Below, one piece after another: positions 1 through 60,378 of a DNA stretch of 64,000 nucleotides. Under the pieces are notes generated by a model. That model did not search any database. It saw only the letters and a program-made list of their open reading frames with translations, and was not told the DNA's origin. The position numbers and the translations under genes were made by a program. Origin of the DNA: an uncultured Clostridia bacterium (GTDB lineage Bacteria; Bacillota; Clostridia; Christensenellales; Aristaeellaceae); contig CAKTWP010000002.1 of the NCBI GenBank assembly GCA_934630705.1, forward strand, positions 100,195-164,194, given 5' to 3'. Positions within the stretch are counted from its first letter, which is position 1; the number at the start of each line of letters is the position of its first letter.

Positions 1-530
1 TGCTTGGATTTAGGAAATCAGCGGGCTTCTGTGTGATGCAATGGGAACGGTGCGGGGCGCTGCCCCACACCCCGCCAGGGAGTTCCTCCCTGGACCCGGT
101 ACACAATGGGACTTGGATTTAAGAAGTCGACGTTTTTCTGTGTGAGACAACAGGAACGGATGTGTTACAGCATCCCGCGGCAGCGCCTGAGCGAATGCTC
201 AGGCCCCGGTCAACCTGTTGACCGGGGGTTTTCGGCATGTCGAGTCCCGGGGAGAACTTGTTCTCCCCGGGATCGATCATCCGAAAACCGCTTCCTGCCG
301 CGGGGAACATGGCCGTAACCCAACATAACCTCACGCTTCACGCGGAAAGATTTCGGATAACCTGCCAACAATCATCGCGGAATGGGGGTGCAGGGGAAGC
401 CTTCCCCTGCTTCGGGGGTTTGGGGGCGAAGAGCCCCCAAAGACTCCCCTGCCCGCGGTCGGCCCCCGTTTAGCTGCTGGGCATATGCAAAAGGCACCAT
501 ACCGTGAAGGCATGGTGCTTTTTTGCTTTG
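1..530. other. Noncoding GC-rich block downstream of tsaC. It carries at least five perfect palindromic stem-loops and a diverged tandem ~60-nt repeat; no convincing ORF.
   Basis: Perfect palindromes: ccagggag-ttc-ctccctgg (82-100); ccccggtcaac-ct-gttgaccgggg (200-223); tcccggggagaac-tt-gttctccccggga (241-268); gcaggggaa-gcc-ttcccctgc (389-409); tttgggggc-gaaga-gcccccaaa (416-438). Segments 4-70 and 113-185 share ttggatttaRgaaRtc...ttctgtgtga...aacgg. Overlapping ORFs are low-complexity. Confidence 0.4.
494..526. terminator. Bidirectional intrinsic terminator
   Basis: Stem gcaccat...catggtgc followed by tttttt on the + strand and tttt on the - strand. Lies ~120 nt downstream of the tsaC stop. 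Confidence 0.55.
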
Positions 531-643
531 CATTTAACTGCGAGAACATAAAATCGGGCCGATCAGCCGTGGGATACAGCCGCAGAGCCTCCACGCCATA
601 GGGCCGCAGAAGGGAGCGCAGCGTTTCTTTGTCCATCATTTCC

Positions 644-1660
644 TCATAGCGTCACGATGTCAAAGGCGGCAGCGCGGGCCATGCGGTTCATCACCGCCAG
701 CGCCACGTCGTCCCCCTGCCAGCCCATGGCCAGAATCAGGGAGCAGCCGGTTTCGTCCATTTCCCGCAGCCGCTGAAACAGCAGATGCGCCGTTTCCTCC
801 GGCGTAGCACCCAGCGATACCGCGGCGCGATGGCCAAAGGCGGGCAACGCATCGGTGTGCGCCAGAATGCAGGCGTTTTCCGCCGCATCGTACCGGCGGC
901 AGATTTCGGCAATCACCTTCTGCTCGTCGCCTACAAACACGGTCATTTTCGCCCGGGGCGCATAATGCCGATGCCGCATGCCGGGAGAGGGCGCGGCTTC
1001 GCCTTCCTTCAGCGGCCGCATCACGCTGGGTGCCACCGTGCAAGCGCCCACAACCTGCTTTACCATGGCCGGGGTAATGGCTCCGGGCCGCAGCACGCAG
1101 GGCGCCTCGCCCGTCACGTCCAGCACCGTGGATTCCACGCCCACCTGGCATTCGCCCCCATCCAGAATCAGGGGGATGCGGCCGTCCATGTCCTCCAGAA
1201 CATGCCGGGCCGTGGTGGGGCTGGGACGGCCGGAGCGATTGGCGCTGGGCGCCGCAATGGGCAGGCCGCATTGGGCCAGCAGCTGATGGGCCACGGGATG
1301 ATTGGGGCAGCGCACGGCCACGGAGGCCAGACCGGCCGTGGTCACATCCGGCACCCGGTCCGTCTTGCGCAGCAGCAGCGTCAGCGGCCCGGGCCAGAAT
1401 GCGTCCATCAGCTTTTTCGCCGTATCCGTCACTTCGCACAGGCCTTCCAGCTGCTCCCGCCGGGCTACATGCACGATCAGCGGGTTGTCCGCCGGCCGCT
1501 CCTTGGCGGCAAAAATGGCGCGCACAGCGTCCGGGTTCAAAGCATCCGCCCCCAGGCCGTAAACCGTTTCCGTGGGGAAGGCCACCACCTGGCCCGCCCG
1601 CAGCAGGGCGCAGGCCCGCTCAAGGGCTGCGGCGTTGGCGGCGCAAAGCATGGTTTCCAT
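644..1660 (-). CDS. tsaC: L-threonylcarbamoyladenylate synthase (Sua5/YrdC family, long form with Sua5 C-terminal domain)
   Basis: 338 aa. YrdC-fold motifs (AFPTETVYGLGADALNPDAVRAIFAAKERPADNPLIVH, LLLRK, IAAPSANRSGRPSPTTA) plus a C-terminal Sua5 domain. Confidence 0.85.
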   Translation of the reverse strand: METMLCAANAAALERACALLRAGQVVAFPTETVYGLGADALNPDAVRAIFAAKERPADNPLIVHVARREQLEGLCEVTDTAKKLMDAFWPGPLTLLLRKTDRVPDVTTAGLASVAVRCPNHPVAHQLLAQCGLPIAAPSANRSGRPSPTTARHVLEDMDGRIPLILDGGECQVGVESTVLDVTGEAPCVLRPGAITPAMVKQVVGACTVAPSVMRPLKEGEAAPSPGMRHRHYAPRAKMTVFVGDEQKVIAEICRRYDAAENACILAHTDALPAFGHRAAVSLGATPEETAHLLFQRLREMDETGCSLILAMGWQGDDVALAVMNRMARAAAFDIVTL

Positions 1661-1681
1661 GAAAAATCGATCTCCTTTTGC

Positions 1682-2173
1682 TCAGCCCAGGGTCTTGCGA
1701 ACCCGGCCCATCAGCGGCCACAGCACCGCGCCGCACACCAGCCCGGCCACGCCCTGGAACGCATTGCCCAGCAAGCTGGCCGCCGCGGTCGCCGCGCCAT
1801 ACAGGCAGGTTTCAAACAGGAAATACCCGGCCACCATCCACGCTTCCGCCACGGCCATCCACACAATCCGCTGCCAGACCTTTTCCGCCTTCAGGCACAG
1901 CGTGCCCGCCATCAGGCCCATCAGCCCCTTGATAATCGCCGTTGCGGGGACATACAGCCCATAGCCCAGAATCAGATCCGCCAGGGCGCTGCCCAGCGCG
2001 CCGGGAATCACCGCCAGCGGGCCCAGCAGCGCGCCGCCGCAGAGAATCAGGCCGTCGCCCAGGTTGCAATAGCCCTGGGTCATGGGAATGGGCACATGCA
2101 GAAATAACGTGGCCACCGCCACCAGCGCGGTCATCACCGCCAAATACACCAGCTGCTTCACAGACATACGCAT
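1682..2173 (-). CDS. ECF-transporter S (substrate-capture) component, ThiW/QueT-like small membrane protein
   Basis: 163 aa with ~5 TM segments. Motifs HVPIPMTQGYCNLGDGLILCGGALLGP are typical of ECF S components. Ends 22 nt upstream of the tsaC start, so probably co-transcribed. Confidence 0.55.
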   Translation of the reverse strand: MRMSVKQLVYLAVMTALVAVATLFLHVPIPMTQGYCNLGDGLILCGGALLGPLAVIPGALGSALADLILGYGLYVPATAIIKGLMGLMAGTLCLKAEKVWQRIVWMAVAEAWMVAGYFLFETCLYGAATAAASLLGNAFQGVAGLVCGAVLWPLMGRVRKTLG

Positions 2174-2205
2174 GGGGAAACATCCTCCTTTTTGGGATAC
2201 GCCTT

Positions 2206-2234
2206 ATCATAGGCGTTAACTGGGCTTTTGTCAA
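2206..2234 (-). promoter_or_regulatory. Sigma-70 promoter for the S-component/tsaC operon
   Basis: On the - strand, TTGACA-17 nt-TATGAT, ~30 nt upstream of the RBS aaggagg and the ATG. The leader is short, with no room for a riboswitch. Confidence 0.5.
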
Positions 2235-2496
2235 GGGCGAAGCTCCACGCGCTTTTCCCTTTGAGCGTCTTCGCTGCGCGCGACGCTATAGGGAAGCGCG
2301 TCACTTTGCTAAGAAGCCTGCCTTCCTTCCGCCGCCGCAGAGCGTCGGCTCCAGAAGCGGCCTGCTGCGCTTGCCCGCGCCGCGTTGCGTCGTAAGGCAA
2401 AGTGCTTTGACTTGCAACGAAAAGGCCGTCGAAAAGCTTTTTCGACAGCCGGAACGCTTTGGGGAAATCGCGGCAGAAATGCGCGCATGCCGGGGG

Positions 2497-3660
2497 TCAT
2501 TTTTTTCGGGCTCTTTCATGGGCCTGGCTTTTCTCCTGATACAGGTTTTTATCCGCGGCGCGGATGAAATCCGGGATGTCCTGAATGGCGGGGGTCTTTA
2601 CGGCGTAGCCGATGCTGAGCGTCACCTGCGCGGGCGTGTTGGCCAGGCAGTTGTTCTGGCGAAGCGTGGCGCGGACGGTATTGCGCACCATGCGAATTTC
2701 CTGCTCGCTTTCCGCTTCGCCGATGGCGATAAACTCATCCCCGCCATAGCGGCCGATAAAGAACGAGTGGGGCAGGGCGGCCTTGAGCGTGTCCGCAATG
2801 CGGCACAGGGCGTTATCGCCCTCCACATGGCCGAATTCATCGTTGATCTGCTTCAGGTTATCCACGTCCAACATCAGCAGATACAGCCGGTAATCGGCGT
2901 TATGATTCTTCATTTTGCTGGACAGGAATCGGATCATCTGGCTGCGGTTATTCAGCTGGGTCAGCGGGTCGATGGAGATCATGCTGCCCTGCTGGCTGAT
3001 ATAGAGCATCAGGGTGGCCAGGGTTGCGCCGATGTGCAGGGCGGGGATCGCGCCGCCGGACAGGAGCTGCTGGGCCAGGAAGGGCAGGGGCACGAAGGTG
3101 AACAGCGTGAGGCTGAGCAGCTCCGTCCGCCGGGCATAATTTTTCTTTTGCAGCGCCAGAATCATGGCACGGATGGAGGCAAACAGCATGTAGCCGTAGG
3201 ACACGATGATATGCAGCCCGTGCAGCGGCCCCCGGTGATAAACGTTTTGCTCGTCAATAAAGAAAATCCAGTGGGTGAAGGGAGAAAGGAGAATCATCGC
3301 CACCATCGCCAGTATGGGAATGGCCACCAGCGCGATCCGCCAGGGCTTTCTGCTTACGGAAGCATTCTGCTGCTTCTCGGCATACAGAAACCAGCCCAGG
3401 CATCCCAAGCTGATGGCAATGAAATAGCCATGGTTCACCGCCCAAAGGAGCCATCGGGGCAGCGAAACGGCGCTGGCGGTCAGCGCGGTCCATGCCCCAT
3501 CGCATAAAATGGCAAGCTGGAAAAGTGACAGCGTCATTATCAGCACCTGATGCTCCCAGCGGCGATCCAGGCTTTTGAACAGCCGACAAACGATGATGCC
3601 CATGATCAGAAAGCACATGATTGTGATTTCCACATACAGCATTGCGGCCAGATTGGTCAA
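2497..3660 (-). CDS. Membrane-anchored diguanylate cyclase (multi-TM N-terminal sensor plus GGDEF domain)
   Basis: 387 aa. The N-terminal ~200 aa are hydrophobic. The C-terminal GGDEF motifs are ...RYGGDEFIAIGEAE... and LMLDVDNLKQINDEFGH. Confidence 0.8.
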   Translation of the reverse strand: MTNLAAMLYVEITIMCFLIMGIIVCRLFKSLDRRWEHQVLIMTLSLFQLAILCDGAWTALTASAVSLPRWLLWAVNHGYFIAISLGCLGWFLYAEKQQNASVSRKPWRIALVAIPILAMVAMILLSPFTHWIFFIDEQNVYHRGPLHGLHIIVSYGYMLFASIRAMILALQKKNYARRTELLSLTLFTFVPLPFLAQQLLSGGAIPALHIGATLATLMLYISQQGSMISIDPLTQLNNRSQMIRFLSSKMKNHNADYRLYLLMLDVDNLKQINDEFGHVEGDNALCRIADTLKAALPHSFFIGRYGGDEFIAIGEAESEQEIRMVRNTVRATLRQNNCLANTPAQVTLSIGYAVKTPAIQDIPDFIRAADKNLYQEKSQAHERARKK

Positions 3661-3806
3661 GGCGGCATCCGTCCTTTCTCAGGCCCTGTTCAGCAAATGG
3701 TTACTGCAAGGTTACGCGATAGGCTCATTGTGTAAAGTGCTTTTCATTTTAGCATATCGCTTGGCGTTTGTAAACACTTTTTGCGTGCGGGGCTGTTTCC
3801 AGGCGC

Positions 3807-3835
3807 TTGACTTTTTCTTTCCGCCCATGTATAAT
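3807..3835 (+). promoter_or_regulatory. Sigma-70 promoter of the proS leader
   Basis: TTGACT-17 nt-TATAAT with an extended TG. Confidence 0.55.
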
Positions 3836-3841
3836 ATCGGT

Positions 3842-4008
3842 AATTTCACACGGCGATGCAAGGTTCCCGCCCTTGGGCCAGCGGCCAATCCCCGCCGGAT
3901 GCCTCCGTTATCAGGCGATCGAGCGGGCGCGCAAAGCGCCAAGCCGGGTGGTACCGCGAAGCTGATTCCCCCTTCGTCCCTGCAAAGGAGCGAGGGGGAT
4001 TTTCTGTT
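3842..4008 (+). promoter_or_regulatory. T-box riboswitch leader (tRNA-sensing antiterminator) controlling proS
   Basis: Conserved T-box sequence GGGTGGTACCGCG at 3946-3958. Followed by a terminator hairpin tcccccttcg...cgagggggat and a U-tract (3964-4008), immediately before the proS RBS. Confidence 0.7.
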
Positions 4009-4028
4009 TGTTTGAAGGAGGAAGCGTT

Positions 4029-5471
4029 ATGGCAAAGGAAAAGAAGCAGGAGTTTGTGCAGCATATTACGCCCCGGGATGAAAACTTCTCCCAGTGGTAT
4101 ACCGACGTGGTCACCCAGACCGACCTGATGGATTACACCCCCGTGCGCGGCTGCATGGCCCTCAAGCCCTACGGCAACCGGATCTGGGAGCTGATTCATG
4201 AGCAGCTGGACGGGATGTTTAAGGAAACGGGCCATGAAAACGTGTCCATGCCCATGCTGATCCCCGAATCCCTGCTGCTCAAGGAAGCGGATCACGTGGA
4301 AGGGTTTGCGCCGGAGGTGGCGTGGGTCACCCAGGGGGGCGCCGAGCCGCTCACAGAGCGCCTGGCCGTTCGCCCCACCAGCGAAACCATTTTTTGCACC
4401 ATGTTTTCCAAGTGGGTGGAATCCTGGCGCGACCTGCCGCTGAAATACAACCAGTGGTGCTCCGTGATGCGCTGGGAAAAGACCACCCGCCCCTTCCTGC
4501 GCACGGCGGAATTCTGGTGGCAGGAGGGCCACACGGTCCACGCCACCGCCGAGGAAGCCGAGCAGGAAACCCAGCAGATGCTGGGCGTGTATAAGACCTT
4601 CTGCGAAAACAACCTGGCCATCCCCGTGTTTGCGGGCCAGAAATCCGAAAAGGAGAAGTTTGCCGGCGCGCAGGCCACCTATTCCATCGAGGCCATGATG
4701 CAGGACGGCAAAGCGCTGCAGGCAGGCACCAGCCATAACTTCGGCACCAATTTCTCCGTGCCCTTCGACATCAAGTATCTGTCCAAGGAAGGCAAGCTGG
4801 AATACTGCTACGAAACCTCCTGGGGCTGCTCCACCCGGCTCATCGGCGCCATCATCATGACCCACGGCGACGAGCGCGGCCTGAAGCTGCCGCCCATGAT
4901 CGCCCCCTATCAGGCGGTGATTCTGCCCATTGCGGCGCATAAGGGCGGCGTGATGGAAAAGTGCGAGGAAGCGTTTGCTGCGCTGAAGGCGGCGGGCATC
5001 CGCGTGAAGCTGGACGACCGGGACAATGTGTCCCCCGGCTGGAAGTTTAACGAATGGGAGCTCAAGGGCGTGCCCGTGCGCGTGGAAATGGGGCCCCGGG
5101 ATATTGAAAACGGCGTGGCCACCGTGATGCGCCGGGATACCTTTGAAAAGACCACCATCTCTCTGGCGCATCTGGCCGAGGAGCTCAAGGCGCTGCTGGA
5201 TGACATTCAGCAGAACATGTTCCGCCAGGCCAATGAATTCCGGCTGGCCCACACCCGGGATGTGCATTCCTACGAGGAGCTCAAGGCCCAGGTGGACGGT
5301 GGCTATGCCCGGGCCATGTGGTGCGGCGACCGGGCCTGCGAGGATAAGATTAAGGAAGAAACCGGCGCCACCTCCCGGAATATGCCCTTCGATCAGACGC
5401 CCATCGGCGACACCTGCGTCTGCTGCGGACGCAAGGCCACGAAGGTCATGTATTTCGCTAAGGCATATTAA
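4029..5471 (+). CDS. proS: Prolyl-tRNA synthetase, archaeal/eukaryotic-type (class II, ~480 aa form)
   Basis: Begins MAKEKKQEFVQHITPRDENFSQWYTDVV with an RBS gaaggagg. The short ProRS architecture lacks the bacterial insertion domain. Class II motifs are present. Confidence 0.9.
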   Translation: MAKEKKQEFVQHITPRDENFSQWYTDVVTQTDLMDYTPVRGCMALKPYGNRIWELIHEQLDGMFKETGHENVSMPMLIPESLLLKEADHVEGFAPEVAWVTQGGAEPLTERLAVRPTSETIFCTMFSKWVESWRDLPLKYNQWCSVMRWEKTTRPFLRTAEFWWQEGHTVHATAEEAEQETQQMLGVYKTFCENNLAIPVFAGQKSEKEKFAGAQATYSIEAMMQDGKALQAGTSHNFGTNFSVPFDIKYLSKEGKLEYCYETSWGCSTRLIGAIIMTHGDERGLKLPPMIAPYQAVILPIAAHKGGVMEKCEEAFAALKAAGIRVKLDDRDNVSPGWKFNEWELKGVPVRVEMGPRDIENGVATVMRRDTFEKTTISLAHLAEELKALLDDIQQNMFRQANEFRLAHTRDVHSYEELKAQVDGGYARAMWCGDRACEDKIKEETGATSRNMPFDQTPIGDTCVCCGRKATKVMYFAKAY

Positions 5472-5478
5472 AAATATA

Positions 5479-5690
5479 GGGGGATCGTTCTTTGCGGTCA
5501 AAGAACAATTCCCCCTGTCCCCTTCCAGAAAAGCCATCGGGATAAAAACGGAATACATCCTATCGGCAATGTGCCCCAGATGGGAGAGAAACGAAAATGC
5601 TGTCGTTCCTTTTCCCGTCCGGGGCACATTGCCGATTGCGCGAAAACCTGCTTTTGTTCCGGCCGGTTTTCGGAGGGGTACGGGGACCGC
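5479..5690 (+). repeat. Composite structured repeat, copy 1 (5' REP hairpin + GGGATAAAAA box + large hairpin + 3' G/C-run hairpin)
   Basis: gggggatcgttctttgcggtcaaagaacaattccccc ... gggataaaaacggaa ... aatgtgccccagatggg[loop]cccgtccggggcacatt ... ccggccggttttcgg ... cggggaccgcttttgacgcaaaagcggtccccg. About 88% identical to 16399-16615. Confidence 0.65.
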
Positions 5691-5720
5691 TTTTGACGCA
5701 AAAGCGGTCCCCGCATTTGT

Positions 5721-6512
5721 TTATTCGCCATAGCTTTCGTCGCTGGTGATTTGCCCTTGGGCGTTCAGCCGAACTATGTATTCGTTCCGGCTGTCGTCCA
5801 GCGGCAGGAAAGAAAACACCCATTCCGGCGGGCCGGAGCGTTCGTCGCCTATCCAGGAATGGCCGTACTGCACCGATTCCTCCCACACAGCGGGATCGGC
5901 GGGATCATCGCCATACCTGTCGCGGATGTAGGCAAGCGCCGCGGCCCGGGCCTGATCGTAGGCGTATTCCCCTTCCCCGGGCAGGAGCAGATAATTCTTC
6001 TCCTTGAATCCGATGGCCACCATAGCCTCCTCGAACCAATACTTCTGCTGGATGCTCCAGGTGTAATACAGCCCGCCGAACGCGTCCCGGGCAAATTCCA
6101 TGATGGTTTCCTCGGCGGAATAATCCTGCCCCGCCGTCAGGGCGGCTTTCAGCCGATCCGAAAGCTGAATGCCGTTTTCCTCCGCCAGAAGCAGCACCTG
6201 CTTTAACTGTGCATTGGTGAATACCTGCTCGTCCCCAAGCGGCTTGTTTTTCTCGTTTTCCTGGGCCATGGGCACCAGATGCCCTTCGATAATCTCCTGT
6301 CCGGACAGCAGCGCCGCTGCCAGCGCGCCCAAGGTCAGCAGGCACAAAAGCAGCGCCAGCACCAGACCGATGGATAACCTCTTTTTCATCGTTCGTTTTC
6401 CCTCCAAAATATGCTGCGTAAGCTGGGCACGCTGGGCGGAAGAGGGGTCAAGGGAAAAAAGCGCGCTGTCCACAGCGTTGGTCAGCCGCTTTTGCAGCTC
6501 CAGATCCTTCAT
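5721..6512 (-). CDS. Membrane-anchored anti-sigma factor (cognate to the upstream ECF sigma)
   Basis: 263 aa with a single TM (LSIGLVLALLLCLLTLGALAAALL). Its start overlaps the sigma gene stop by 4 nt (ATGA coupling). Confidence 0.55.
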   Translation of the reverse strand: MKDLELQKRLTNAVDSALFSLDPSSAQRAQLTQHILEGKRTMKKRLSIGLVLALLLCLLTLGALAAALLSGQEIIEGHLVPMAQENEKNKPLGDEQVFTNAQLKQVLLLAEENGIQLSDRLKAALTAGQDYSAEETIMEFARDAFGGLYYTWSIQQKYWFEEAMVAIGFKEKNYLLLPGEGEYAYDQARAAALAYIRDRYGDDPADPAVWEESVQYGHSWIGDERSGPPEWVFSFLPLDDSRNEYIVRLNAQGQITSDESYGE

Positions 6513-7030
6513 GGTTCATCCCCTCCCGTCAGGCTTTGCCGAAGCATTTCCTCCGCCCGCCGCAGGCGTTTGGCGGCGGTGGATTTGGGCATGCCCAGAA
6601 TGTCCGCCGCTTCCCGCAGCGTCAGGTTGTGATAGTAATACAGGAGAATCAGCCTTTTTTCAGGCGCGGGCAGCCCGGCCAGAGAAAGAAACAGCGATCG
6701 ATCCTCCGCCGGAAGCGCCAGCAGGCCGGGCGGCAATTCCTCCAGCGCCTGATGAAAATCCATCCGCCGAAACCATGCGCCCCGGCGATAATCCCGGCAG
6801 GTGTTGATGGCGATGCGCAGAAGCCAGGCCCTGACATTGCGCACCTGCTGCCGCTCAAAGCGCTCCATGGCTTTCCAGGCCTTGAAAAATGTATCCTGCA
6901 AAGCGTCCTGCGCCAGCGCCCGATCGCCCAGCTCCAGAAAGCAGGTTTTGAGAAGACAATCGCTGTACGCGTCCACCCAGCCCTCCAGCGTTTCCTCCCG
7001 GGTCATGCCGGGTACCGCAGCATGCTCCAT
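6509..7030 (-). CDS. RNA polymerase ECF-type sigma-70 factor
   Basis: 173 aa. Region 2 (FLELGDRALAQDALQDTFFKAWK) and region 4 HTH (LTLREAADILGMPKSTAAKRLRRA). Confidence 0.85.
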   Translation of the reverse strand: MEHAAVPGMTREETLEGWVDAYSDCLLKTCFLELGDRALAQDALQDTFFKAWKAMERFERQQVRNVRAWLLRIAINTCRDYRRGAWFRRMDFHQALEELPPGLLALPAEDRSLFLSLAGLPAPEKRLILLYYYHNLTLREAADILGMPKSTAAKRLRRAEEMLRQSLTGGDEP

Positions 7031-7082
7031 TGGCGCTCCCTCCCTTCCTCACCAATAAAGACGATATACCCCGGCGCTTTGT

Positions 7083-7109
7083 CCACGAAAGTCGGCGAAA
7101 AATGTTGCA
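7083..7109 (-). promoter_or_regulatory. Candidate ECF-type autoregulatory promoter upstream of the sigma gene
   Basis: On the - strand, tGCAAC-16 nt-CGTg, matching the AAC-N16-CGT pattern of SigW/SigM-type ECF promoters. Sits ~50 nt upstream of the sigma ATG. Confidence 0.35.
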
Positions 7110-7203
7110 AAAGTCTTAAATTTGAAAAGTCCACAATTTGTTTGCCAAAAGCGCTGCATGATTTGCTATGATAAAACCAGCATTTCCAAAGGAGGCGTTT
7201 GGA

Positions 7204-8295
7204 ATGAAACGAATGATGGCTTTACTGCTGGCGCTTGTGCTGTGGCTGCCTGTGGGGGCGGGGGCCGCTTCGCTGGATGCGCTGGCCGGGCTGATACAGG
7301 GGCAGAAGGAGAATAGCGATCCGGTGCTTACCTCTCCGGCGTTTTTGCTGGGCGGGGAGGGTGCGCTGCTGCTGGAAGACGTGGTCATGGGCGATCAGCT
7401 TTACGACGCATATGGTTATCCCCTGTGTGAAGATACGAATGCTTTCGCGGCTACCTATGAAAAATGGATGACGCTGGCAGGCTACGAAATGACCGCCGTT
7501 ACCATCAATGATTACAGCGCCTATCAGCTGACCGCGCCCTCCGGGCTGTGCGCTTATCTGATTCCCCGGTTTTCCAAGGCGGCCGTGCTGTTTATCCCGG
7601 AGGGCATCACGGTGGGGCCGCTGGTGCTTCCCGATCCGGCGGACTATTGCTCCGCGGCCATGGCCCCTACCCACGATCAGGCGGATAGTGGATTCACCTG
7701 GTATTTCTATCGCACGGAAGATGCGGATGTTTTCGATTATAAACGTTATTTTCAGGCCTTGGAAAGCCAGTATGGATTCAAGCGGCTGTTAGATGAAGAA
7801 AATGCCATCGAAACGATCTGGTCTGCCGAAGATTATACAAGCTATACGCCCTTCTCTGTGCCGGGCTATCAGGGAAAACAGCTTACTGCACGGGGGAGTA
7901 CCTGCGATTTTATGGTTTATGTTAACAGCAAGGTGATTTCATCCGTACGCTGGACAACGATGGGCCCTGCCTTGGCAAATGGAGCCGTGGGCATTGTGGC
8001 TTCAGGCTATGAGGACAACGGCGTCTACTTTGCCAAGGGCGGCGCTGGCGGGGAAAGGACGCAGTCCGGCGAACCGGCAAAGCAGTCCGCCAGCCCTACG
8101 GCGAAGCCCACCGCCAAGCCCACCGAGGCCCCCAAGGCCTGCAATTATTGCGGTGGCTCCGGCTGGCAGCAGCACAGCTTCTGCCGCGGCAGCGGAAAAA
8201 ACTATATGGCGGGCAGCGGATACAGGAGCTGCCCGTCCTGCGGCGGCACAGGCCGCGTCCGCTGCAATTATTGCGGCGGTACCGGGAAAAAATAA
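7204..8295 (+). CDS. Secreted protein with a C-terminal DnaJ-type CxxCxGxG zinc-finger repeat domain
   Basis: Signal peptide MKRMMALLLALVLWLPVGAGAA. Pro/Thr/Ala/Lys linker PTAKPTAKPTEAPKA. Three CxxCxGxG repeats (CNYCGGSG, CPSCGGTG, CNYCGGTG). RBS aaaggagg. Divergent from the ECF sigma operon. Confidence 0.6.
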   Translation: MKRMMALLLALVLWLPVGAGAASLDALAGLIQGQKENSDPVLTSPAFLLGGEGALLLEDVVMGDQLYDAYGYPLCEDTNAFAATYEKWMTLAGYEMTAVTINDYSAYQLTAPSGLCAYLIPRFSKAAVLFIPEGITVGPLVLPDPADYCSAAMAPTHDQADSGFTWYFYRTEDADVFDYKRYFQALESQYGFKRLLDEENAIETIWSAEDYTSYTPFSVPGYQGKQLTARGSTCDFMVYVNSKVISSVRWTTMGPALANGAVGIVASGYEDNGVYFAKGGAGGERTQSGEPAKQSASPTAKPTAKPTEAPKACNYCGGSGWQQHSFCRGSGKNYMAGSGYRSCPSCGGTGRVRCNYCGGTGKK

Positions 8296-8362
8296 TCCGC
8301 GCCTTCCTTCAGGAAAGCCCAATGCGCAAAGAAGGAGCAATTTACCCGTTTCTCTGCCGAAA

Positions 8363-8399
8363 AATCCGCATCGGATGTTGCCGGTGCGGATTCTTTCGT
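8363..8399 (+). terminator. Intrinsic terminator
   Basis: aatccgca...tgcggatt hairpin followed by ctttcgtt. Confidence 0.45.
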
Positions 8400-8411
8400 T
8401 CTGTCCGTGCC

Positions 8412-8441
8412 GCCATAATTGCCCGTCCCGTCTCATATAGT
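8412..8441 (+). promoter_or_regulatory. Candidate sporulation-sigma (sigE/sigK-type) promoter of sigK
   Basis: ccATAATT-14 nt-CATATAGT resembles the sigE consensus (kmATATT-N14-CATACAnT). Sits ~20 nt upstream of the sigK RBS. Confidence 0.35.
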
Positions 8442-8460
8442 GGGCTAAGGAGGTGGGCGC

Positions 8461-9150
8461 ATGCTTTCGTTTTTGATGTGGCTGCTCAGGGACGCGCTGT
8501 TTTTCTTTGGCATGGTTTCCGGGCGGGGGTCGTTTCCCAAGCCCCTGTCCCGGCAGGAGGAGGCCCAGGCCATCGCCGCCATGGCCGCGGGAGATGCGGA
8601 CGCACGGCTGCGGCTGATTGAGCATAATCTGCGGCTGGTGTCTCACATTGCGCGCAAATACACGGTGCCGGGCTACAGTCAGGAGGATCTGGTTTCCGTT
8701 GGCACCCTGGGGCTGATGAAGGCGGTGGATACCTTTAAGCCCGAGACGGGTTCCCAGCTGGCCACTTATGCTGCCAGATGCATTGAAAATGAAATCCTGA
8801 TGCTGCTGCGCGCGTCCAAGAAGCGGCGGGGAGATGTATCCCTTTCTGATCCCATCGGCACGGATGGCGAGGGCAATGATATTTCCTTTATGGATATTCT
8901 GGGCACGCCGCCGGGGCAAGTGGAGGAGCAGGTGGCCCAACGGCTGGACCTGGCCAAGGTGAAGGCGCTGGTGCGCACGCTTCCTCGTAAGGAACGGCTG
9001 GTGATTGAAATGCGTTATGGGCTGCTGGACGGGGCTGCGCATCCCCAGCATGAGGTGGCTGCACTGCTGGGTATTTCCCGCTCCTATGTATCCCGGCTGG
9101 AGAAAAAGGCTCTGGCACTGCTGCGGGAGGGAATGGAAAAACCGGTTTGA
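8461..9150 (+). CDS. sigK: Sporulation sigma factor SigK (pro-sigma-K with N-terminal pro-sequence); uninterrupted
   Basis: Strong similarity to B. subtilis SigK throughout: FPKPLSRQEE pro-region, RLIEHNLRLVSHIARKY, SDPIGTDGEGNDISFMDIL, SRSYVSRLEKKAL. Confidence 0.8.
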   Translation: MLSFLMWLLRDALFFFGMVSGRGSFPKPLSRQEEAQAIAAMAAGDADARLRLIEHNLRLVSHIARKYTVPGYSQEDLVSVGTLGLMKAVDTFKPETGSQLATYAARCIENEILMLLRASKKRRGDVSLSDPIGTDGEGNDISFMDILGTPPGQVEEQVAQRLDLAKVKALVRTLPRKERLVIEMRYGLLDGAAHPQHEVAALLGISRSYVSRLEKKALALLREGMEKPV

Positions 9151-9574
9151 GCGCGCGGGAAGGCGCTGCGGGGAAAAACATTACTTGCGAACAGAGAATG
9201 GTTTTCCCCGTTCCGCAGTCTCGATCGGTGCGGCGGAACGCTGCTAATTGTTTCGATTGATTCGCGCAACTCCCTGCAGCTTGCGCTGGCAGGGCGGCCG
9301 TTTCATTCAGCCTCTCCAAGAAGGCAGTAGGGCTAAAAACGAAATTGCCCCTATCATCAGCGAACCCCCATTTGAGGAAAGAAAAGACCTTTTTCCTATC
9401 TGGCGTGGATTGCTGATAAGGAAGCGGCTACCAATTTATCCTAATCGGCCTTTGGGGGGAGCGCACGAAAGAGGCTAAAACCTTCCTGTATATTCTTCTT
9501 TCTGTCCCCGCCTCGCCCTTGCCAGCAGGCGGCGGGTGTGGTACAATACGGGCGCAGAGAAAGGGGGCGGGCGC

Positions 9575-10168
9575 ATGCCGGATAAACGGGGAAAGGCCAC
9601 GAAGAAGAAAATCGTGTCTGCCGCATGGAAGCTCTTTTATGAGCAGGGCTATGACAGCACCACCATTGAGGAAATCATCGCGGAATCCGGCACGTCCCGG
9701 GGCTCCTTTTATCATTATTTCGCTGGAAAGGATGCGCTGCTGGGATCGCTGTCGTTCATGTTTGATGAGAAATATGAGGAGCTGATTCCGCAGCTGGATC
9801 CGGCCATGGACGCCTTCGATCAGCTGATGCTTTTGAACCGGGAATTGTTCGGCATGATCGAGGATACCATCTCTCTGGATCTGCTGGCCCGGATGTATTC
9901 CACCCAGCTGACCACCAGCGGCGAAAAGCACCTGATGGATCACAACCGCATTTATTATCGCCTGATCCGCAAAATCGCTGTGGAAGGGCAGGAAAAGGGC
10001 CAGCTCCGAAGCGATATTTCCGTGAACGAAATCACCAAGCTCTATGCCCTGTGCGAGCGGGCGCTGCTGTATGACTGGTGCCTGTGCGGGGGCAGCTATT
10101 CCTTGAAGCATTACGCCGAAACAACGCTGCCCATGCTGCTGGGTCATGTTCGGGCCAGGCAGGCCTGA
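9575..10168 (+). CDS. TetR/AcrR family transcriptional regulator
   Basis: N-terminal HTH KKKIVSAAWKLFYEQGYDSTTIEEIIAESGTSRGSFYHYF. Start moved to MPDKRG. Confidence 0.8.
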   Translation: MPDKRGKATKKKIVSAAWKLFYEQGYDSTTIEEIIAESGTSRGSFYHYFAGKDALLGSLSFMFDEKYEELIPQLDPAMDAFDQLMLLNRELFGMIEDTISLDLLARMYSTQLTTSGEKHLMDHNRIYYRLIRKIAVEGQEKGQLRSDISVNEITKLYALCERALLYDWCLCGGSYSLKHYAETTLPMLLGHVRARQA

Positions 10169-10247
10169 TGGTCCAATACGCAAAACATCCCGGGCAAGGG
10201 AGAAAATCCGCTTTGCCCGGGACGCTTTTTATGCCATGGAAACGGAA

Positions 10248-11810
10248 TTACGCGGCGCGCTTGGCCTGCTCAAACTCCGCCTGAATTTCCGCGCTGGGCG
10301 CAGGCGTAAGCAGGGAGACGACCACGATCAGCAGCGCCGAGAACAGAAATGCCGGCAGCAGCTCGTAAATGCCCAGCAGCCCGCCCAGGGGTTTAATCAG
10401 CAGCTTCCAGATGAACACCATCGCGCCGCCGCCTACCATGCCGGCAATGGCTCCGGCCCGGGTGGTGCGCTTCCAGAACAGGGAGAAAAGCATCAGCGGG
10501 CCGAACGTGGCGCCAAAGCCCGCCCAGGCAAAGGAAACCACCTGGAAAATCACGCTGTTTTCATCCCAGGCAATCACCAGTCCCAGCAGCGTGATGGCCA
10601 GCACCACCAGCCGGGACAAACGCATCACCTGCTTGTCCGAGGCGTTTTTCTTGATGATTCCGCCATAAATGTTCTTGGAAACGGCGGAGGAGGCGATCAG
10701 CAGATAGGAATCGGAGGAGCTGATGGTGGCCGCCAGAATCCCGGCGGTGACCAGCCCGGCCAGCACAGGATGAAACATCAGCTTCGCCAACTGGGCAAAC
10801 ACGTTTTCAGAGCCGCTCTGTGTGGCCAGCGCGGGATCTACCGGCAGCAGCGCCCGGCCCATCAGGCCGATGAATACCGCTGCGGCCAAAGAAATTACCA
10901 CCCACACCGTGGCAATCCGGCGGGACCGGGTAAGCTCGCTGCCCCGGCGAATGGCCATGAATCGCAGCAGCACCTGGGGCATGCCGAAATAGCCAAGTCC
11001 CCAGCTCAGGGTGGAGAGAATCGTGAGGAAGCCATAGCCCTGCGCATTGCCGAACACCGCCGCGCCCTCCTTGGCCAGCTGCACGCCGTTTGCGTCCAGC
11101 GTGGGGAAGGCCAGCGCCGTCAGCGACAGGAAGCCGGGAATGCTGCGGGCGTTTTCGATCACCGCCTTCAGCCCGCCGGCGTTTTTTACGCCCACGATCA
11201 GCACACACAGCAGCGCTACCACCATCACCATCGCCTGAAGAAAGTCCGACACGCTTTCGGCCAGAAATCCGCCCAGAATGGTATACAGCAGCACAAACGC
11301 CGCGCCGATGAGCATCATGGTGTGATACGGCATGTTAAACAGCCCGGCGAACAGCTTTCCGCAGGTGACAAAGCAGCTGGCGGCGTACACCGTGAAGAAA
11401 ATCAGAATGAACACAGCCGATACGCTCAGAATCACCTTTTTCTTTTCATGGAAGCGATTGCTCAGGAAATCCGGCACGGTGATGGCGTTGCCCGCCGCCA
11501 CGGAATAGCTCCGCAGCCGCCGGGAGACCAGCAGCCAGTTCAGATAGGTGCCCAGCGCCAGACCGATGGCCGTCCAGCCCGCGTCCGCCAGGCCGCACCA
11601 ATAGGCCAGCCCCGGCACGCCCATGAGCAGATAGCCGCTCATATCCGAGGCCTCAGCGCTCATGGCCGACACCCACGGCCCCAGCGTGCGCCCGCCCAGA
11701 AAATAGTTTTCACTGCTCTGCTGGGATCGCCGCGCAAACAGAACGCCAATTAGAATGATCATTAGCATATAACATAGCATAACCACCAGGATAATCGCCT
11801 GACTTGTCAT
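10248..11810 (-). CDS. Sodium:solute symporter family transporter (PutP/OpuE-like Na+/proline-type)
   Basis: 520 aa with ~13 TM. The N-terminal SSF signature is YFLGGRTLGPWVSAMSAEASDMSGYLLMGVPGLAYWCG. Confidence 0.75.
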   Translation of the reverse strand: MTSQAIILVVMLCYMLMIILIGVLFARRSQQSSENYFLGGRTLGPWVSAMSAEASDMSGYLLMGVPGLAYWCGLADAGWTAIGLALGTYLNWLLVSRRLRSYSVAAGNAITVPDFLSNRFHEKKKVILSVSAVFILIFFTVYAASCFVTCGKLFAGLFNMPYHTMMLIGAAFVLLYTILGGFLAESVSDFLQAMVMVVALLCVLIVGVKNAGGLKAVIENARSIPGFLSLTALAFPTLDANGVQLAKEGAAVFGNAQGYGFLTILSTLSWGLGYFGMPQVLLRFMAIRRGSELTRSRRIATVWVVISLAAAVFIGLMGRALLPVDPALATQSGSENVFAQLAKLMFHPVLAGLVTAGILAATISSSDSYLLIASSAVSKNIYGGIIKKNASDKQVMRLSRLVVLAITLLGLVIAWDENSVIFQVVSFAWAGFGATFGPLMLFSLFWKRTTRAGAIAGMVGGGAMVFIWKLLIKPLGGLLGIYELLPAFLFSALLIVVVSLLTPAPSAEIQAEFEQAKRAA

Positions 11811-12058
11811 TCCCGTTCCCCTCGCTTCTCTTTGTAAATCCTTTATTTTTGCGGATTACGAACGGGATTATAGCATGCGATTATTCGAATGTAAATACAG
11901 AATGAATTACAGAATAAAGTCTGTACATCATAAGACAGAAAAACGGAAAAACACAGCTTTCAGGCCTGGATGCGCCTTGAAGCATCGCGCATCCTCTTGC
12001 CAACAAACGGGAAATATCGTATAATAAAATCAATGAAAAACAGGAGGAGGGATGCGCA

Positions 12059-13777: not shown

Positions 13778-13800
13778 AGCCATTAAAAAAGCAGAATACG

Positions 13801-13854
13801 ATGCGGGAGGAAGCTTTTTGAAAAGCGTCCTTCCGCATTTTTCTTCATCCGGTT
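13801..13854 (+). terminator. Intrinsic terminator after the phosphoglucomutase gene
   Basis: atgcgggaggaagc...gcgtccttccgcat hairpin followed by ttttctt. Confidence 0.5.
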
Positions 13855-13920
13855 TTTGCAAGGATTTCTCCGCCCTTGTTCATTCTGTGCAGTTTTCCTT
13901 ATTTTTCTGCGTTTTCGTCA

Positions 13921-13949
13921 TTGCGCTTTCCCTGGAATGCCGATACAAT
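13921..13949 (+). promoter_or_regulatory. Sigma-70 promoter (TTGCGC-17-TACAAT)
   Basis: Hexamers with 17-nt spacing, ~40 nt upstream of the RBS aaaagggga. Confidence 0.4.
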
Positions 13950-13986
13950 GGCCTTACATCCCAGAGAAAAGGGGAGCGATGAAAAC

Positions 13987-14988: not shown

Positions 14989-15046
14989 AGGGCAGCGATG
15001 GCGGCATGCGCAGCTGTTCTTTGTCTGTGCTTTTGCGGGAATGCCC

Positions 15047-15075: not shown

Positions 15076-15079
15076 GAAG

Positions 15080-15117: not shown

Positions 15118-15138
15118 AGAACCGAAGAGGAACAGAAC

Positions 15139-16374: not shown

Positions 16375-16398
16375 TGGAAAACGGGGACATTGTAGTGA

Positions 16399-16615
16399 AA
16401 TCGTTCCTTGTGGCCAAAGAACGTTTCCGCCTGTACCCCTTCCGGGAAAGCGATAGGGATAAAAACGGAACACATCCTGTCAGTAATGTGCCCCAGATGG
16501 GAGAGAAACGAAAATGCTGTCGTTTCTTTTCCCGTCTGGGGCACATTACCGATTGTGTGAAAATCTGTTTTTATCCCGGCAGGTTTTCGGGTGGGCGCGG
16601 GAGGGGGGCGCAAAA
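16399..16615 (+). repeat. Composite structured repeat, copy 2
   Basis: Same modules as 5479-5690. The large hairpin taatgtgccccagatggg...cccgtctggggcacatta carries compensatory changes relative to copy 1. Ends with gcgggaggggggcgcaaaagcctcctcccgc. Confidence 0.65.
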
Positions 16616-16645
16616 GCCTCCTCCCGCAATATTTTCCATTGCTGA

Positions 16646-19350: not shown

Positions 19351-19368
19351 GCAAGGGAGGCCATTGCC

Positions 19369-24973: not shown

Positions 24974-24996
24974 TATAATGAAATAGACCAAAAGCA

Positions 24997-25040
24997 GGGA
25001 AACCGTTCTTTGGGCGCAAAGGACGGTTTTCTTTTCTATC
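24997..25040 (+). terminator. REP-like hairpin/terminator (GGAAACCGTTCTTTGG family member)
   Basis: gggaaaccgttctttgggcgcaaaggacggttttc followed by ttttctatcc. Confidence 0.55.
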
Positions 25041-28611: not shown

Positions 28612-28619
28612 GTAAACCC

Positions 28620-28687
28620 TTATGGCTTTCTTGGATGGGGGTGCGGGGGAAACCGTTCTTTGGCCACAAAAGAACGGTTTCCCCCGC
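28620..28687 (+). repeat. Partial composite repeat (3' module: GGCTTTCTTGG + REP hairpin)
   Basis: atggctttcttggatgggggtgcgggggaaaccgttctttggccacaaaagaacggtttcccccgc. The same module is seen at 60310-60378 and 40160-40221. Confidence 0.55.
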
Positions 28688-28708
28688 ATCATCTCCCCAT
28701 GATTCTCG

Positions 28709-39976: not shown

Positions 39977-39987
39977 ATCGCATAAGG

Positions 39988-40221
39988 TGCGGGGGAAGCG
40001 CTTTTGCTTCAAAAGCAGCTCCTCCGCGCCCCCTCCGAAAACCGGTTGGGATATAAAAAGGATTGCGTTAATCAGCGGTGTGCCCCAGCTTGGAAAAGGA
40101 ACCATTTCCTCAACCAGCTGGGGCACATGTGCGATTAAGCAAGGACTGCTGAATCCCTGCCGGCTTTCTTGGGGTAACGCGGGAAGGGGAACTTTTCCCC
40201 GGGAAAGAATCCCCCTCCCGC
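39988..40221 (+). repeat. Composite structured repeat, copy 3 (diverged)
   Basis: gggggaagcgcttttgcttcaaaagcagc...gggatataaaaagga...gtgtgccccagcttgg[loop]ccagctggggcacatg...cgattaagc...ccggctttcttgggg...gcgggaaggggaacttttccccgggaaagaatccccctcccgc. Arm substitutions relative to copies 1 and 2 are compensatory. Confidence 0.55.
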
Positions 40222-50304: not shown

Positions 50305-50321
50305 ATGATAAAAAATCTGGC

Positions 50322-50356
50322 GGAAGGGCGTTCCTGGCGATCCGGGAACGCCCTCC
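50322..50356 (+). terminator. Strong hairpin after the binding-protein gene (no U-tract)
   Basis: ggaagggcgttcc-tggcgatccg-ggaacgccctcc. Confidence 0.3.
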
Positions 50357-50612
50357 TGCGTTATCCCAGAAAGCCCGCAGGCGGGATGACGCGTCATGCG
50401 TCGTCCGAAATGTGTCCCTGTCTGCGAAAAAACGAAACGCTGCGTCCGGTTTTTCTGATTTGCCGATGCATATTTTTATGTGACGCTTCTGCGCCGCTTC
50501 ATGCCTGCCGCTGTATTTTTTCAGCAGGAAAAAGCTGCTTTTGAGCGAATTTCTGATACAAACCCGCGCAAATCTGGCATACTAAAGCCGTGCTTGAAAG
50601 GAGCGATGAAGG

Positions 50613-60199: not shown

Positions 60200-60378
60200 A
60201 ACGGGCGGACTCTTTACCTGCCGCCCCTGCGCCCCGGAATGGAGAGAAACGGAAAAGCCTTCGTTTTCTTCCCCACCCCGGGGCGCATTCGACGTTTCTA
60301 TAAAATTTGTTTTATCCGTATGGCTTTCTTGGGAGGGCGCGGGAGGGGGTTCTTTGGCCGCAAAGAACCTCCTCCCGC
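60200..60378 (+). repeat. Composite structured repeat, copy 4 (diverged)
   Basis: gcgccccggaatggagagaaacggaaaagccttcgttttcttccccaccccggggcgcattcgacg, then tatggctttcttgggagggcgcgggagggggttctttggccgcaaagaacctcctcccgc. Confidence 0.55.

What the first reader, a model, noticed from the sequence alone, without database searches (positions are those of the whole stretch)
5479..5690. Modular structured repeat family, always co-oriented with and immediately 3' of a gene (copies at 5479-5690, 16399-16615, 39988-40221, 60200-60378)
Four ~180-230-nt copies share the same module order: a 5' G-run/GTTCTTTG palindrome, a GGGATAAAAA(c)GGA box, a 15-17-bp hairpin built on (A)ATGTGCCCCAG...CTGGGGCACAT(T), a CCGATTgcGC box, CCGGC(n)GGTTTTCGG or CCGGCTTTCTTGG, and a terminal GCGGG(A)GGGG-loop-CCCC(T)CCCGC hairpin. 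Between copies the big-hairpin arms change in a base-pair-preserving way: c-g versus t-a at the stem base, an A-C mismatch repaired to A-T in copy 2, and AGATGGG/CCCGTCYGG replaced by AGCTTGG/CCAGCTGG in copy 3. That argues for selection on structure, not just recent duplication. All four copies are on the + strand and sit directly after + strand genes (proS, lysA-like, yloV, sugar permease), although about half the genes here are on the - strand. This looks like a transcribed 3'-UTR or small-RNA element family rather than a randomly inserted MITE. I do not recognise it as a described RNA family.
Basis: seen in the sequence. Interest (0 to 1): 0.62.

Follow-up and report, generated by a model that had tools for sequence, protein, structure and literature searches.

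The report
Palindromic mosaic repeat at gene ends
The four look-alike segments are real. They belong to a larger, lineage-restricted family of hairpin-forming repeats that sit just after genes in an uncultured gut Clostridia bacterium, and they look more like REP/BIME- or MITE-type repeated DNA than a new regulatory RNA.

Summary
The repeat is real. All four copies are at the stated coordinates. Three more copies or remnants lie in the window, one lies just beyond it, and there is one solo arm.

Each complete copy is nearly a perfect palindrome. It runs: terminator-type hairpin (H), a C-rich box (CCCyTCCmAGAAAGCC), a GGGAT..AAAAAC arm, a 60-70-nt central hairpin (HP), then the mirrored arm, box and H followed by a T-rich tail.

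Evidence against a dedicated RNA:
- Rfam has no match.
- Plus and minus strands fold about equally well.
- G.U and A.C cells in the HP stem are equal (12 vs 13).
- Copy 3 aligns to copy 1 slightly better in reverse.

So the compensatory changes show that a hairpin is maintained, but not that a plus-strand RNA is selected.

Copies range from 86% identical to badly decayed. They are fixed in the sampled strains (13 metagenome contigs; not every copy was covered). Arm units occur in two sister lineages with different centres and are absent from other close lineages. One orthologous junction carries a plain terminator instead.

My best reading is a REPIN/BIME/MITE-like interspersed repeat tolerated at gene 3' ends and probably co-transcribed there. 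The one real asymmetry is unexplained: the purine-rich HP arm comes first on the plus strand in 8 of 8 copies. No transposase was seen. Interest is modest.

The parts
5479..5517 (+). c1 proximal hairpin H1 (GGGGGATCGTTCTTTG-CGGT-CAAAGAACAATTCCCCC). It starts 7 nt after the proS stop codon. It has no T tail on the plus strand but a T-rich tail on the minus strand.
   Evidence: (D1 family)
5518..5563 (+). c1 left arm: box CCCCTTCCAGAAAAGCC followed by GGGATAAAAACGGAAT...
   Evidence: nhmmer E 0.0017
5564..5634 (+). c1 central hairpin HP (AATGTGCCCCAGATGGGAGAGAAACG-loop-CGTTCCTTTTCCCGTCCGGGGCACATT), 29 pairs
5635..5679 (+). c1 right arm, the mirror of the left arm, ending in GGTTTTCGGAGGGG
5680..5716 (+). 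c1 distal hairpin H2 with a T-rich tail on the plus strand. It is the top terminator-like site in the scan of 1-20000 and lies 4 nt from the stop codon of the convergent minus-strand gene.
16395..16627 (+). c2, a complete copy after the Orn/DAP decarboxylase-family gene. H1 16395-16431, left arm from 16436, HP 16481-16551, right arm to 16596, H2 16597-16627, then the tail AATATTTTCC.
   Evidence: (190 bits)
39986..40221 (+). c3, a complete but diverged copy between the DAK2/yloV-like gene and the next plus-strand gene (Tex). H1 39986-40030, left arm from 40029, HP 40075-40133, right box 40150-40176, H2 40179-40221, then the tail TTTCATCTTTGT.
60228..60378 (+). c4, which lacks the left arm. HP 60228-60289, right arm 60290-60337 (GGCTTTCTTGGGAGGG), H2 60339-60378, then the tail. 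It lies between a sugar-ABC permease gene and rplU.
   Evidence: (D4)
H1 51097-51139, box CCCCCTCCAAGAAAGAC, an unrelated insert of about 115 nt, HP 51275-51334, then a T-rich tail. It has no right arm and lies between the phasin-like gene and the convergent recG.
9170..9466 (+). c6, a degenerate copy. H1 9170-9209, an extra module of about 100 nt 9210-9310, box and arm from 9311, a decayed HP, and a right box at about 9440-9466. It follows a sigma-factor gene.
   Evidence: (26.6 bits, E 0.001)
50320..50475 (+). c7, a remnant. H 50320-50359, box CCCAGAAAGCC, then decayed arm and HP traces. It lies between the NMT1-like and phasin-like genes.
28612..28688 (-). Solo unit: an H hairpin (28645-28688) followed on the minus strand by the box CCCCCATCCAAGAAAGCC. 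It lies directly after the stop codon of a minus-strand CHAP-domain gene.
   Evidence: E 0.0009
24996..25033 (.). Stand-alone H-type hairpin (GGGAAACCGTTCTTTG..CAAAGGACGGTTTTC) between two plus-strand genes. Similar stand-alone H hairpins lie at 13801-13838 and 43694-43728.

Best explanation
**What it is.** This is a lineage-restricted family of non-coding, interspersed, palindromic mosaic repeats. It is of the same kind as REPIN/BIME elements and foldback MITEs such as BOX, ERIC and Correia.

**Building block.** The unit is a terminator-type hairpin H (consensus GCGGGGGAAnCGTTCTTTG-loop-CAAAGAACGnTTCCCCCGC) joined to a C-rich box (CCCyTCCmAGAAAGCC) and a GGGAT..AAAAAC arm. Two such units in inverted orientation flank a central hairpin HP, so a whole copy of about 240 nt can fold back on itself.

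**How it spreads and persists (inferred).** The family spread by duplication or transposition within this clade. Copies survive only where insertions are harmless, between a stop codon and the next gene's control region. They then decay into one-armed and solo remnants. The hairpins are kept either because the propagation machinery needs a single-stranded-DNA hairpin or because they double as terminators.

**Effect on transcripts (inferred, not shown).** The inward-facing side of each H is C-rich and the outward-facing side is T-rich. Transcripts entering from the neighbouring gene therefore probably run through the first H and the core and end at the far H. That would give those mRNAs a long 3' hairpin, which could affect their stability.
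For: **Copy number and decay series.** There are seven copies or remnants plus one solo unit in 64 kb, and an eighth copy 1.3 kb beyond the window. They span 86% identity (c1/c2), about 70% (c3), one-armed copies (c4, c5, c8, L023) and degenerate copies (c6, c7).

**Palindromy.**
- Each core aligns to its own reverse complement.
- GGGATAAAAAC is found on both strands in c2.
- Each core folds as a single long hairpin.

**No RNA-strand signal.**
- Minimum free energies for plus and minus strands are similar: -85.5/-82.8, -74.8/-75.8, -52.3/-55.1 and -80.7/-82.5 kcal/mol. Only c2 favours the plus strand.
- There are 12 G.U against 13 A.C cells in the HP alignment.

**Mosaic build.** H-type hairpins also stand alone (D1 family). 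Extra modules are shared between c6, c8 and L045 7914-8010.

**Patchy distribution of the arm unit (nhmmer, E below 0.3).**
- Present: 8 hits in the window, 4 in L040 (17 kb), 7 in L045 (21.6 kb).
- Absent: 0 hits in L037 (21 kb), 0 in L043 plus L050 (26 kb, one assembly), 0 in L032-L034 (57 kb).
- The sister lineages that have the unit carry different central modules.

**Filled against empty site.** The NMT1-to-phasin junction is 308 nt with c7 in the window. In L050 it is 179 nt with a plain terminator, and the downstream promoter region is conserved between the two. The genes that carry c1 and c3 here carry ordinary terminators in L037 and L043.

**No known RNA family or coding signal.** Rfam gives nothing. 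An SD-plus-ATG in the HP loop occurs in only 3 of 9 copies (sequence read).

**Tail asymmetry of H1 and H2:**

**Literature.** REP doublets in inverted orientation that form hairpins, with singlets as decayed remnants, define REPINs (PMC3116915, read).
Against: - No transposase or RAYT-type gene lies in the roughly 86 kb of this species that was examined.
- No target-site duplication or clean insertion boundary could be defined.
- No presence/absence polymorphism was seen in the sampled strains: c1 in 10 contigs, c7 in 3, c5 in 2 plus part of a third, c4 in 1, and c2 through one further contig. c3 and c6 were not tested across strains. This fits old, fixed elements but gives no direct sign of mobility.
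- The purine-rich HP arm comes first on the plus strand in 8 of 8 copies, and no HP-bearing copy follows a gene that is only on the minus strand. That is unexpected for random insertion. It would fit either selection on the transcript or strand-specific single-stranded-DNA transposition.
- HP covariation exceeds the controls, so some constraint on pairing does exist.
Confidence: 0.55

Rival explanations
1. It is a cis-acting 3'-UTR RNA element selected at the RNA level. The long hairpin plus terminal terminator would stabilise or insulate the upstream mRNA or serve as an RNase III site, and copies would be retained because they do this job.
For: - All copies begin 7-21 nt after a stop codon.
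- The far hairpin has a T tail and the near one does not.
- The HP shows compensatory changes above shuffled and slid controls.
- The purine-rich arm comes first in 8 of 8 copies, and in L023 relative to its upstream gene.
- Copies are fixed and 99-100% conserved in the strain contigs that cover them.
Against: - There is no strand-specific pairing signal: 12 G.U against 13 A.C cells, and equal fold energies on both strands.
- Copies decay freely. Arms are lost in c4, c5 and c8, and c6 and c7 are degenerate.
- Orthologous genes in sister lineages do without the element.
- L045 7875-8210 is collinear with c6 but inverted relative to its flanking genes.
- Only four of the sites (tandem contexts) inform on gene co-orientation, giving a chance probability of about 1/16.
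Confidence: 0.22
2. These are independent small-RNA genes. Each copy would be transcribed from its own promoter and end at H2, acting in trans.
For: H2 is a good terminator. The size, 160-240 nt, is typical of small RNAs.
Against: - No conserved promoter lies upstream. The copy starts within 7-21 nt of a stop codon, and H1 comes first.
- The only promoter-like hexamers lie on the minus strand inside H1 of c1 and c2.
- There are many diverged and truncated copies and no conserved single-stranded seed.
- Rfam gives nothing.
Confidence: 0.04
3. It is a DNA-level element with replication-linked polarity. One form would be a footprint of strand-specific single-stranded-DNA transposition of the IS200/IS605-RAYT type. 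Another would be a binding site for a chromosome-organising protein near the origin.
For: - All 8 HP-bearing copies share one strand in a stretch with positive cumulative GC skew.
- That stretch carries parA/parB, so it probably lies on one replichore near oriC.
- Hairpins are maintained with no RNA-strand bias.
Against: - The element is almost its own reverse complement, so it carries little polarity.
- No Y1 transposase was seen.
- No conserved GTAG-type cleavage motif lies next to H (read).
- Gene orientation and replication orientation are confounded in this window.
Confidence: 0.1

Closest known systems
REPINs / BIMEs (REP doublets and mosaic REP arrays of Pseudomonas and enterobacteria; Bertels & Rainey 2011, PMC3116915)
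   Same: - A short palindromic unit is repeated in extragenic space.
- Two units in inverted orientation plus a spacer form a long hairpin.
- Solo units look like decayed remnants.
- Units combine with other motifs into mosaics.
- Copies sit at 3' ends of genes and between convergent genes.
- The hairpin is preserved.
- Inheritance is vertical and the element is fixed within a species.
   Different: - The host is a Gram-positive-type Clostridia (Christensenellales-like) gut bacterium.
- The unit is longer: about 40 nt of hairpin plus a 16-nt box plus an arm.
- The spacer itself is a conserved 60-70-nt hairpin.
- No GTAG-like motif and no RAYT gene was found in the sequence available.
BOX elements of Streptococcus pneumoniae, and the similar ERIC and Correia/NEMIS foldback repeats
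   Same: - The build is modular: left module, variable middle, right module.
- The outer modules are complementary, so the element folds into a long stem-loop.
- It is intergenic and co-transcribed with neighbouring genes.
- No transposase is encoded.
- Some of these elements affect mRNA stability or termination (from general knowledge).
   Different: - Sequence similarity to these families was not tested here, because no library of them was available.
- No TA-type target duplication was seen here.
- Here the outermost modules are themselves terminator-type hairpins.
Rho-independent (intrinsic) terminators
   Same: H2 of c1-c4, and the HP in the one-armed copies c5, c8 and L023, are GC-rich hairpins followed by T-rich tails directly after genes.
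   Different: Ordinary terminators do not share stem sequences between loci, nor 16-nt flanking boxes, nor 160-nt palindromic inserts. The same window holds many unrelated plain terminators.

Membership tests
Any Rfam family (release 15) | Covariance-model match at or near the gathering score | tested here: not met
   (gathering threshold) return only tRNA. In one search (E up to 10, on c1) only miRNA-precursor models match the long hairpin, at 40 bits or less against gathering scores of 86 or more.
REPIN / REP-RAYT system | A short imperfect palindrome repeated many times in extragenic space | tested here: met
   About 14 H-type hairpins lie in 64 kb, all intergenic. The same hairpin occurs in sister lineages L040 and L045.
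REPIN / REP-RAYT system | Two units in inverted orientation with a spacer, predicted to fold as one hairpin; singlets more decayed | tested here: met
   c1-c3 fold as one long hairpin between inverted H-plus-box units. One-armed and solo forms (c4, c5, c7, 28612-28688) are the more diverged ones.
REPIN / REP-RAYT system | A single-copy RAYT (Y1 transposase) gene flanked by the repeats | not testable with these tools
   None lies in the roughly 86 kb of this species that was seen (Pfam tables).
REPIN / REP-RAYT system | A conserved GTAG-type tetranucleotide at the 5' side of the palindrome | tested here: not met
   The bases flanking H differ between copies: TATAG, TGTAG, AAGGT, ATATT, GCTGC, ATCTG (read).
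MITE (non-autonomous DNA transposon) | Terminal inverted repeats | tested here: met
   Left CCCCTTCCAGAAAAGCC against right GGTTTTCGGAGGGG, and equivalents in every complete copy.
MITE (non-autonomous DNA transposon) | Target-site duplication flanking the element | tested here: inconclusive
   No direct repeat is seen at the outer edges of c1-c4. Without a clean empty site, however, the true ends are unknown.
MITE (non-autonomous DNA transposon) | Presence/absence polymorphism (filled against empty sites) | tested here: inconclusive
   Within the species there is none in the contigs that cover each copy: c1 in 10, c7 in 3, c5 in 2 plus part of a third, c4 in 1, c2 in 1; c3 and c6 were not tested. 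Between lineages, c7's junction is 308 nt against 179 nt with a plain terminator in L050. c1's and c3's host genes lack the element in L037 and L043, but divergence hides the exact boundaries.
MITE (non-autonomous DNA transposon) | A related autonomous element with the same ends | not testable with these tools
   No match in plasmid or phage records or in viral contigs. An HTH-only transposase-like ORF next to repeats in L045 is not flanked by the units.
Intrinsic terminator | A GC-rich stem-loop followed by a T-rich tract on the transcribed strand | tested here: met
   The H2 tails hold 6-8 T in 12 nt. The H1 tails on the plus strand hold 1-4 T. c1's H2 is the top terminator-like site.

The most novel reading that the evidence does not exclude
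This could be a self-propagating 'terminator cassette' in a Gram-positive gut lineage. It would be a REPIN-like replicator whose arms are working terminators, so the host has come to depend on it to end transcription of core genes such as proS, the decarboxylase-family gene and yloV. In this reading the strict single-strand orientation would reflect replication-coupled single-stranded-DNA transposition by a transposase not yet identified. Alternatively, the core could be processed into a family of 3'-UTR-derived small RNAs.
Probability: 0.12. Interest if true: 0.6.

Novelty: new member of a known kind. Interest (0 to 1): 0.3.

Why it matters
- **Repeats outside Proteobacteria.** REP/REPIN-type repeats are well studied in Proteobacteria. 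I found nothing on them in Clostridia: a full-text search for REPIN, RAYT and Firmicutes returned no paper. A well-defined mosaic family in an uncultured gut Christensenellales-like lineage would extend that biology.
- **Assembly and strain typing.** The family could serve as a strain- or lineage-typing marker. It could also explain contig breaks in MAG assemblies. Gene order in sister lineages changes exactly at the 3' ends that carry copies.
- **Caution for motif hunters.** Compensatory changes in a palindromic repeat are not evidence for an RNA unless they are strand-specific.
- **Gene expression.** If the copies really supply the terminators of housekeeping genes, they bear on gene expression in this organism.

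Tried and rejected
1. **Known RNA family.** Rfam at gathering and at permissive thresholds returned only tRNA and spurious miRNA-hairpin hits.
2. **Small protein.** c1, c2 and c8 have GGGAGAG/GGGAAG followed 8-10 nt later by ATG in the HP loop. c3, c4, c5, c6 and L023 lack the ATG, and the reading frames differ downstream, so this was rejected.
3. **More copies from public collections.** The HP pattern found only chance hits in the GTDB representative genomes. In metagenome contigs it found only the c2 orthologue (L030) and one one-armed copy (L023). Viral contigs, plasmid records and phage records gave nothing.
4. **Clean empty sites.** ProS and YloV orthologues at 84-92% identity lie in different gene neighbourhoods, so exact boundaries could not be read. 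Only the NMT1-phasin junction is syntenic.
5. **Strain polymorphism and SNP covariation.** Only 1-4 SNPs per copy were found, and none are compensatory.
6. **Strand test.** Fold energies and G.U against A.C counts show no asymmetry.
7. **Covariance model orientation scores.** These are biased because c3 was in the training set, so they were replaced by unbiased pairwise forward and reverse alignments.
8. **Other motifs.** GTAG-type REP motifs, TA duplications, and parS or Noc-site resemblance (only c2 has CTTCCGGGAAAG) were not consistent between copies.
9. **Transposase-like ORF in L045 (378-1397).** It has HTH domains only and is not flanked by the units.

Full report
**1. Checking the observation**

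The four segments are as described.
- c1 and c2 align at 85.6% over 202 nt (E 3e-62). c3 matches both at about 70%.
- The core pattern GCCCCRG-N25-55-CYGGGGC occurs six times in the window against 0.46 expected, and no shuffle out of 100 reaches six. Five of the six hits are family members. That revealed a fifth copy at 51275-51334.
- c1 and c3 fold far better than dinucleotide shuffles (z = -10.5 and -8.2).

Rfam has no family for it. At gathering threshold only a tRNA is found. At E up to 10, only miRNA-precursor models hit the long hairpin, far below their thresholds.

**2. Anatomy**

A complete copy (c1, c2, c3) runs as follows:
- the stop codon, then 7-21 nt;
- hairpin H1;
- a C-rich box, CCCyTCCmAGAAAGCC;
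- an arm, nTnGGGATAAAAAC...;
- the central hairpin HP (TGYGCCCCRG ... CYGGGGCRCA, with a purine-rich 5' interior and a pyrimidine-rich 3' interior);
- the mirror-image arm and box (GGCTTTCTTGGGAGGG or GGTTTTCGGAGGGG);
- hairpin H2;
- a T-rich tail.

The 160-nt core folds as one long interrupted hairpin.

GGGATAAAAAC is found on both strands in c2. Each core aligns well to its own reverse complement, and c3 aligns to c1 slightly better reversed (117.5) than forward (105.5).

H1 and H2 belong to one hairpin family, GCGGGGGAAnCGTTCTTTG-loop-CAAAGAACGnTTCCCCCGC. That family also occurs alone in the window at 24996, 13801 and 43694 (D1 family).

**3. More members**

A covariance model and an nhmmer profile of the arm unit added:
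- c5 (51097-51345): H1, box, an unrelated 115-nt insert, then HP;
- c6 (9170-9466): an extra module of about 100 nt and a decayed HP;
- c7 (50320-50475): a remnant;
- a solo H-plus-box on the minus strand at 28612-28688, directly after a minus-strand gene;
- c8, 1.3 kb beyond the window end (L054 13640-13870).

c4 lacks the whole left arm. So does a metagenome copy, L023, where the HP alone sits 14 nt after a stop codon with a TTTTGTT tail.

The family is therefore a decay series and a mosaic, not four equivalent copies.

**4. RNA or DNA?**

The HP alignment of seven copies has 9 of 23 pairs with double changes. Shuffles give 5.2 +/- 1.4, and 7 of 500 reach the observed value. The true register also clearly beats slid registers. 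So pairing is maintained.

Watson-Crick compensation is the same on both strands, however. The strand-specific signature of RNA is missing:
- There are 12 G.U cells against 13 A.C cells.
- Minimum free energies of plus and minus strands are similar for c1, c3, c4 and c5. Only c2 favours the plus strand.

The data do not single out a plus-strand RNA.

**5. Orientation and placement**

All eight HP-bearing copies lie on the plus strand with the purine-rich HP arm first, and all follow plus-strand genes.
- Four sites are convergent (c1, c2, c5, c8) and say nothing about gene co-orientation.
- Four are tandem (c3, c4, c6, c7), giving a chance probability of about 1/16.

The window has positive cumulative GC skew and carries parA/parB. 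The plus strand is therefore probably the leading strand near the origin. Gene orientation and replication orientation are confounded here.

In sister lineage L045, a copy collinear with c6 lies between two minus-strand genes, so it is inverted relative to its neighbours.

No copy lies in any divergent, promoter-containing intergenic region.

The sides of H that face outward are T-rich: H2 plus-strand tails hold 6-8 T in 12 nt, and H1 minus-strand tails hold up to 8. The inward sides are the C-rich boxes. I infer that transcripts from either flank read through the first hairpin and the core and stop at the far hairpin.

**6. Who has it**

The organism is an uncultured human-gut Clostridia (Christensenellales-like) MAG species.

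Where the sampled strain contigs cover a copy, it is kept at 99-100% identity with the same intergenic lengths. That covers c1 in 10 contigs, c2 in part, c7 in 3, c5 in 2 plus part of a third, and c4 in 1.

Among sister lineages the arm unit (nhmmer, E below 0.3) is patchy:

| Source | Length | Arm-unit hits |
|---|---|---|
| window | 64 kb | 8 |
| L040 | 17 kb | 4 |
| L045 | 21.6 kb | 7 |
| L037 | 21 kb | 0 |
| L043 + L050 (one assembly) | 26 kb | 0 |
| L032-L034 | 57 kb | 0 |

L040 and L045 keep H and the box but have different central modules, and L045 has tandem arrays.

The only syntenic junction recovered is NMT1-like to phasin-like. It is 308 nt with c7 here and 179 nt with a plain terminator in L050, and the downstream promoter region is conserved between the two. 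proS and yloV, which carry c1 and c3 here, end in ordinary terminators in L037 and L043.

Gene order in sister lineages changes exactly at these 3' ends.

**7. Interpretation**

The following are the hallmarks of REP/BIME/REPIN-type or foldback-MITE repeated DNA (definition in PMC3116915):
- conserved inverted ends with variable interiors;
- near-perfect palindromy;
- a decay series;
- lineage-specific abundance;
- restriction to harmless 3' intergenic sites;
- no strand-specific RNA signal.

I take that as the best explanation (confidence 0.55). Co-transcription as a hairpin-forming 3' UTR is a likely but unproven side effect.

Against a simple mobile-element reading:
- no transposase in about 86 kb;
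- no target duplication;
- no within-species polymorphism;
- a one-strand orientation in 8 of 8 copies that random insertion does not explain.

That orientation keeps two rivals alive. The other is a replication-polar DNA mechanism (0.10).

**8. Novelty**

The family is not in Rfam. It was not found in plasmid, phage or viral collections. A full-text search for REPIN, RAYT and Firmicutes returned no paper.

It is a new member of a well-known kind of element, so interest is modest.

Noticed in passing
window 2240-2360; L010 14154-14490: A 120-nt unit in the GGDEF-to-ECF-transporter intergenic region is present once in the window. It is tandemly repeated in other strains of the same species (2.8 copies in L010), so the intergenic length varies from 324 to 720 nt. 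Its motif AAGTGACGCGCTTCC also recurs on metagenome contig L023, next to a family copy.
   Followed up: partly
window 18574-20220: ParA/Soj-like and ParB/Spo0J-like genes lie here, and cumulative GC skew rises across the window. The window is therefore probably near oriC on one replichore. This confounds the 'same strand as the gene' argument.
   Followed up: partly
window 5471 and 39976, compared with L037, L040, L043, L045: In sister lineages with 86-92% identical ProS or YloV, gene order changes exactly at the 3' ends where this species carries copies c1 and c3. The repeats may mark rearrangement breakpoints, or these genomes may simply be heavily shuffled.
   Followed up: no
window 5473-5501 and 16389-16417, minus strand: Promoter-like hexamers (TTGACC-17-TATATT and TTGGCC-17-TACAAT) lie inside H1 of c1 and c2, pointing back into proS and the decarboxylase gene. 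They are probably chance matches created by the hairpin loop and the AT-rich stop region.
   Followed up: no
window 26114-26166: An ordinary bidirectional terminator between convergent genes has an interior (GATGGGAGAAAACAG...GTTTCTTCC) that resembles the interior of the family's central hairpin. The covariance model scores it 18 bits.
   Followed up: no
window 51177-51211 and 34788-34822: The 115-nt insert inside copy c5 shares a 35-nt stretch (83% identity) with a site near the tRNA region. This may be another small repeat.
   Followed up: no
L045 1640-1890 and L045 378-1397: A sister lineage carries two tandem units of about 105 nt from its own version of the repeat. They lie next to a 339-aa ORF that has only transposase-type HTH domains (HTH_23/28/29/32), and that ORF is not flanked by the units.
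   Followed up: partly
window 34192-34276, minus strand: A tRNA gene, the only Rfam match in the window.
   Followed up: no
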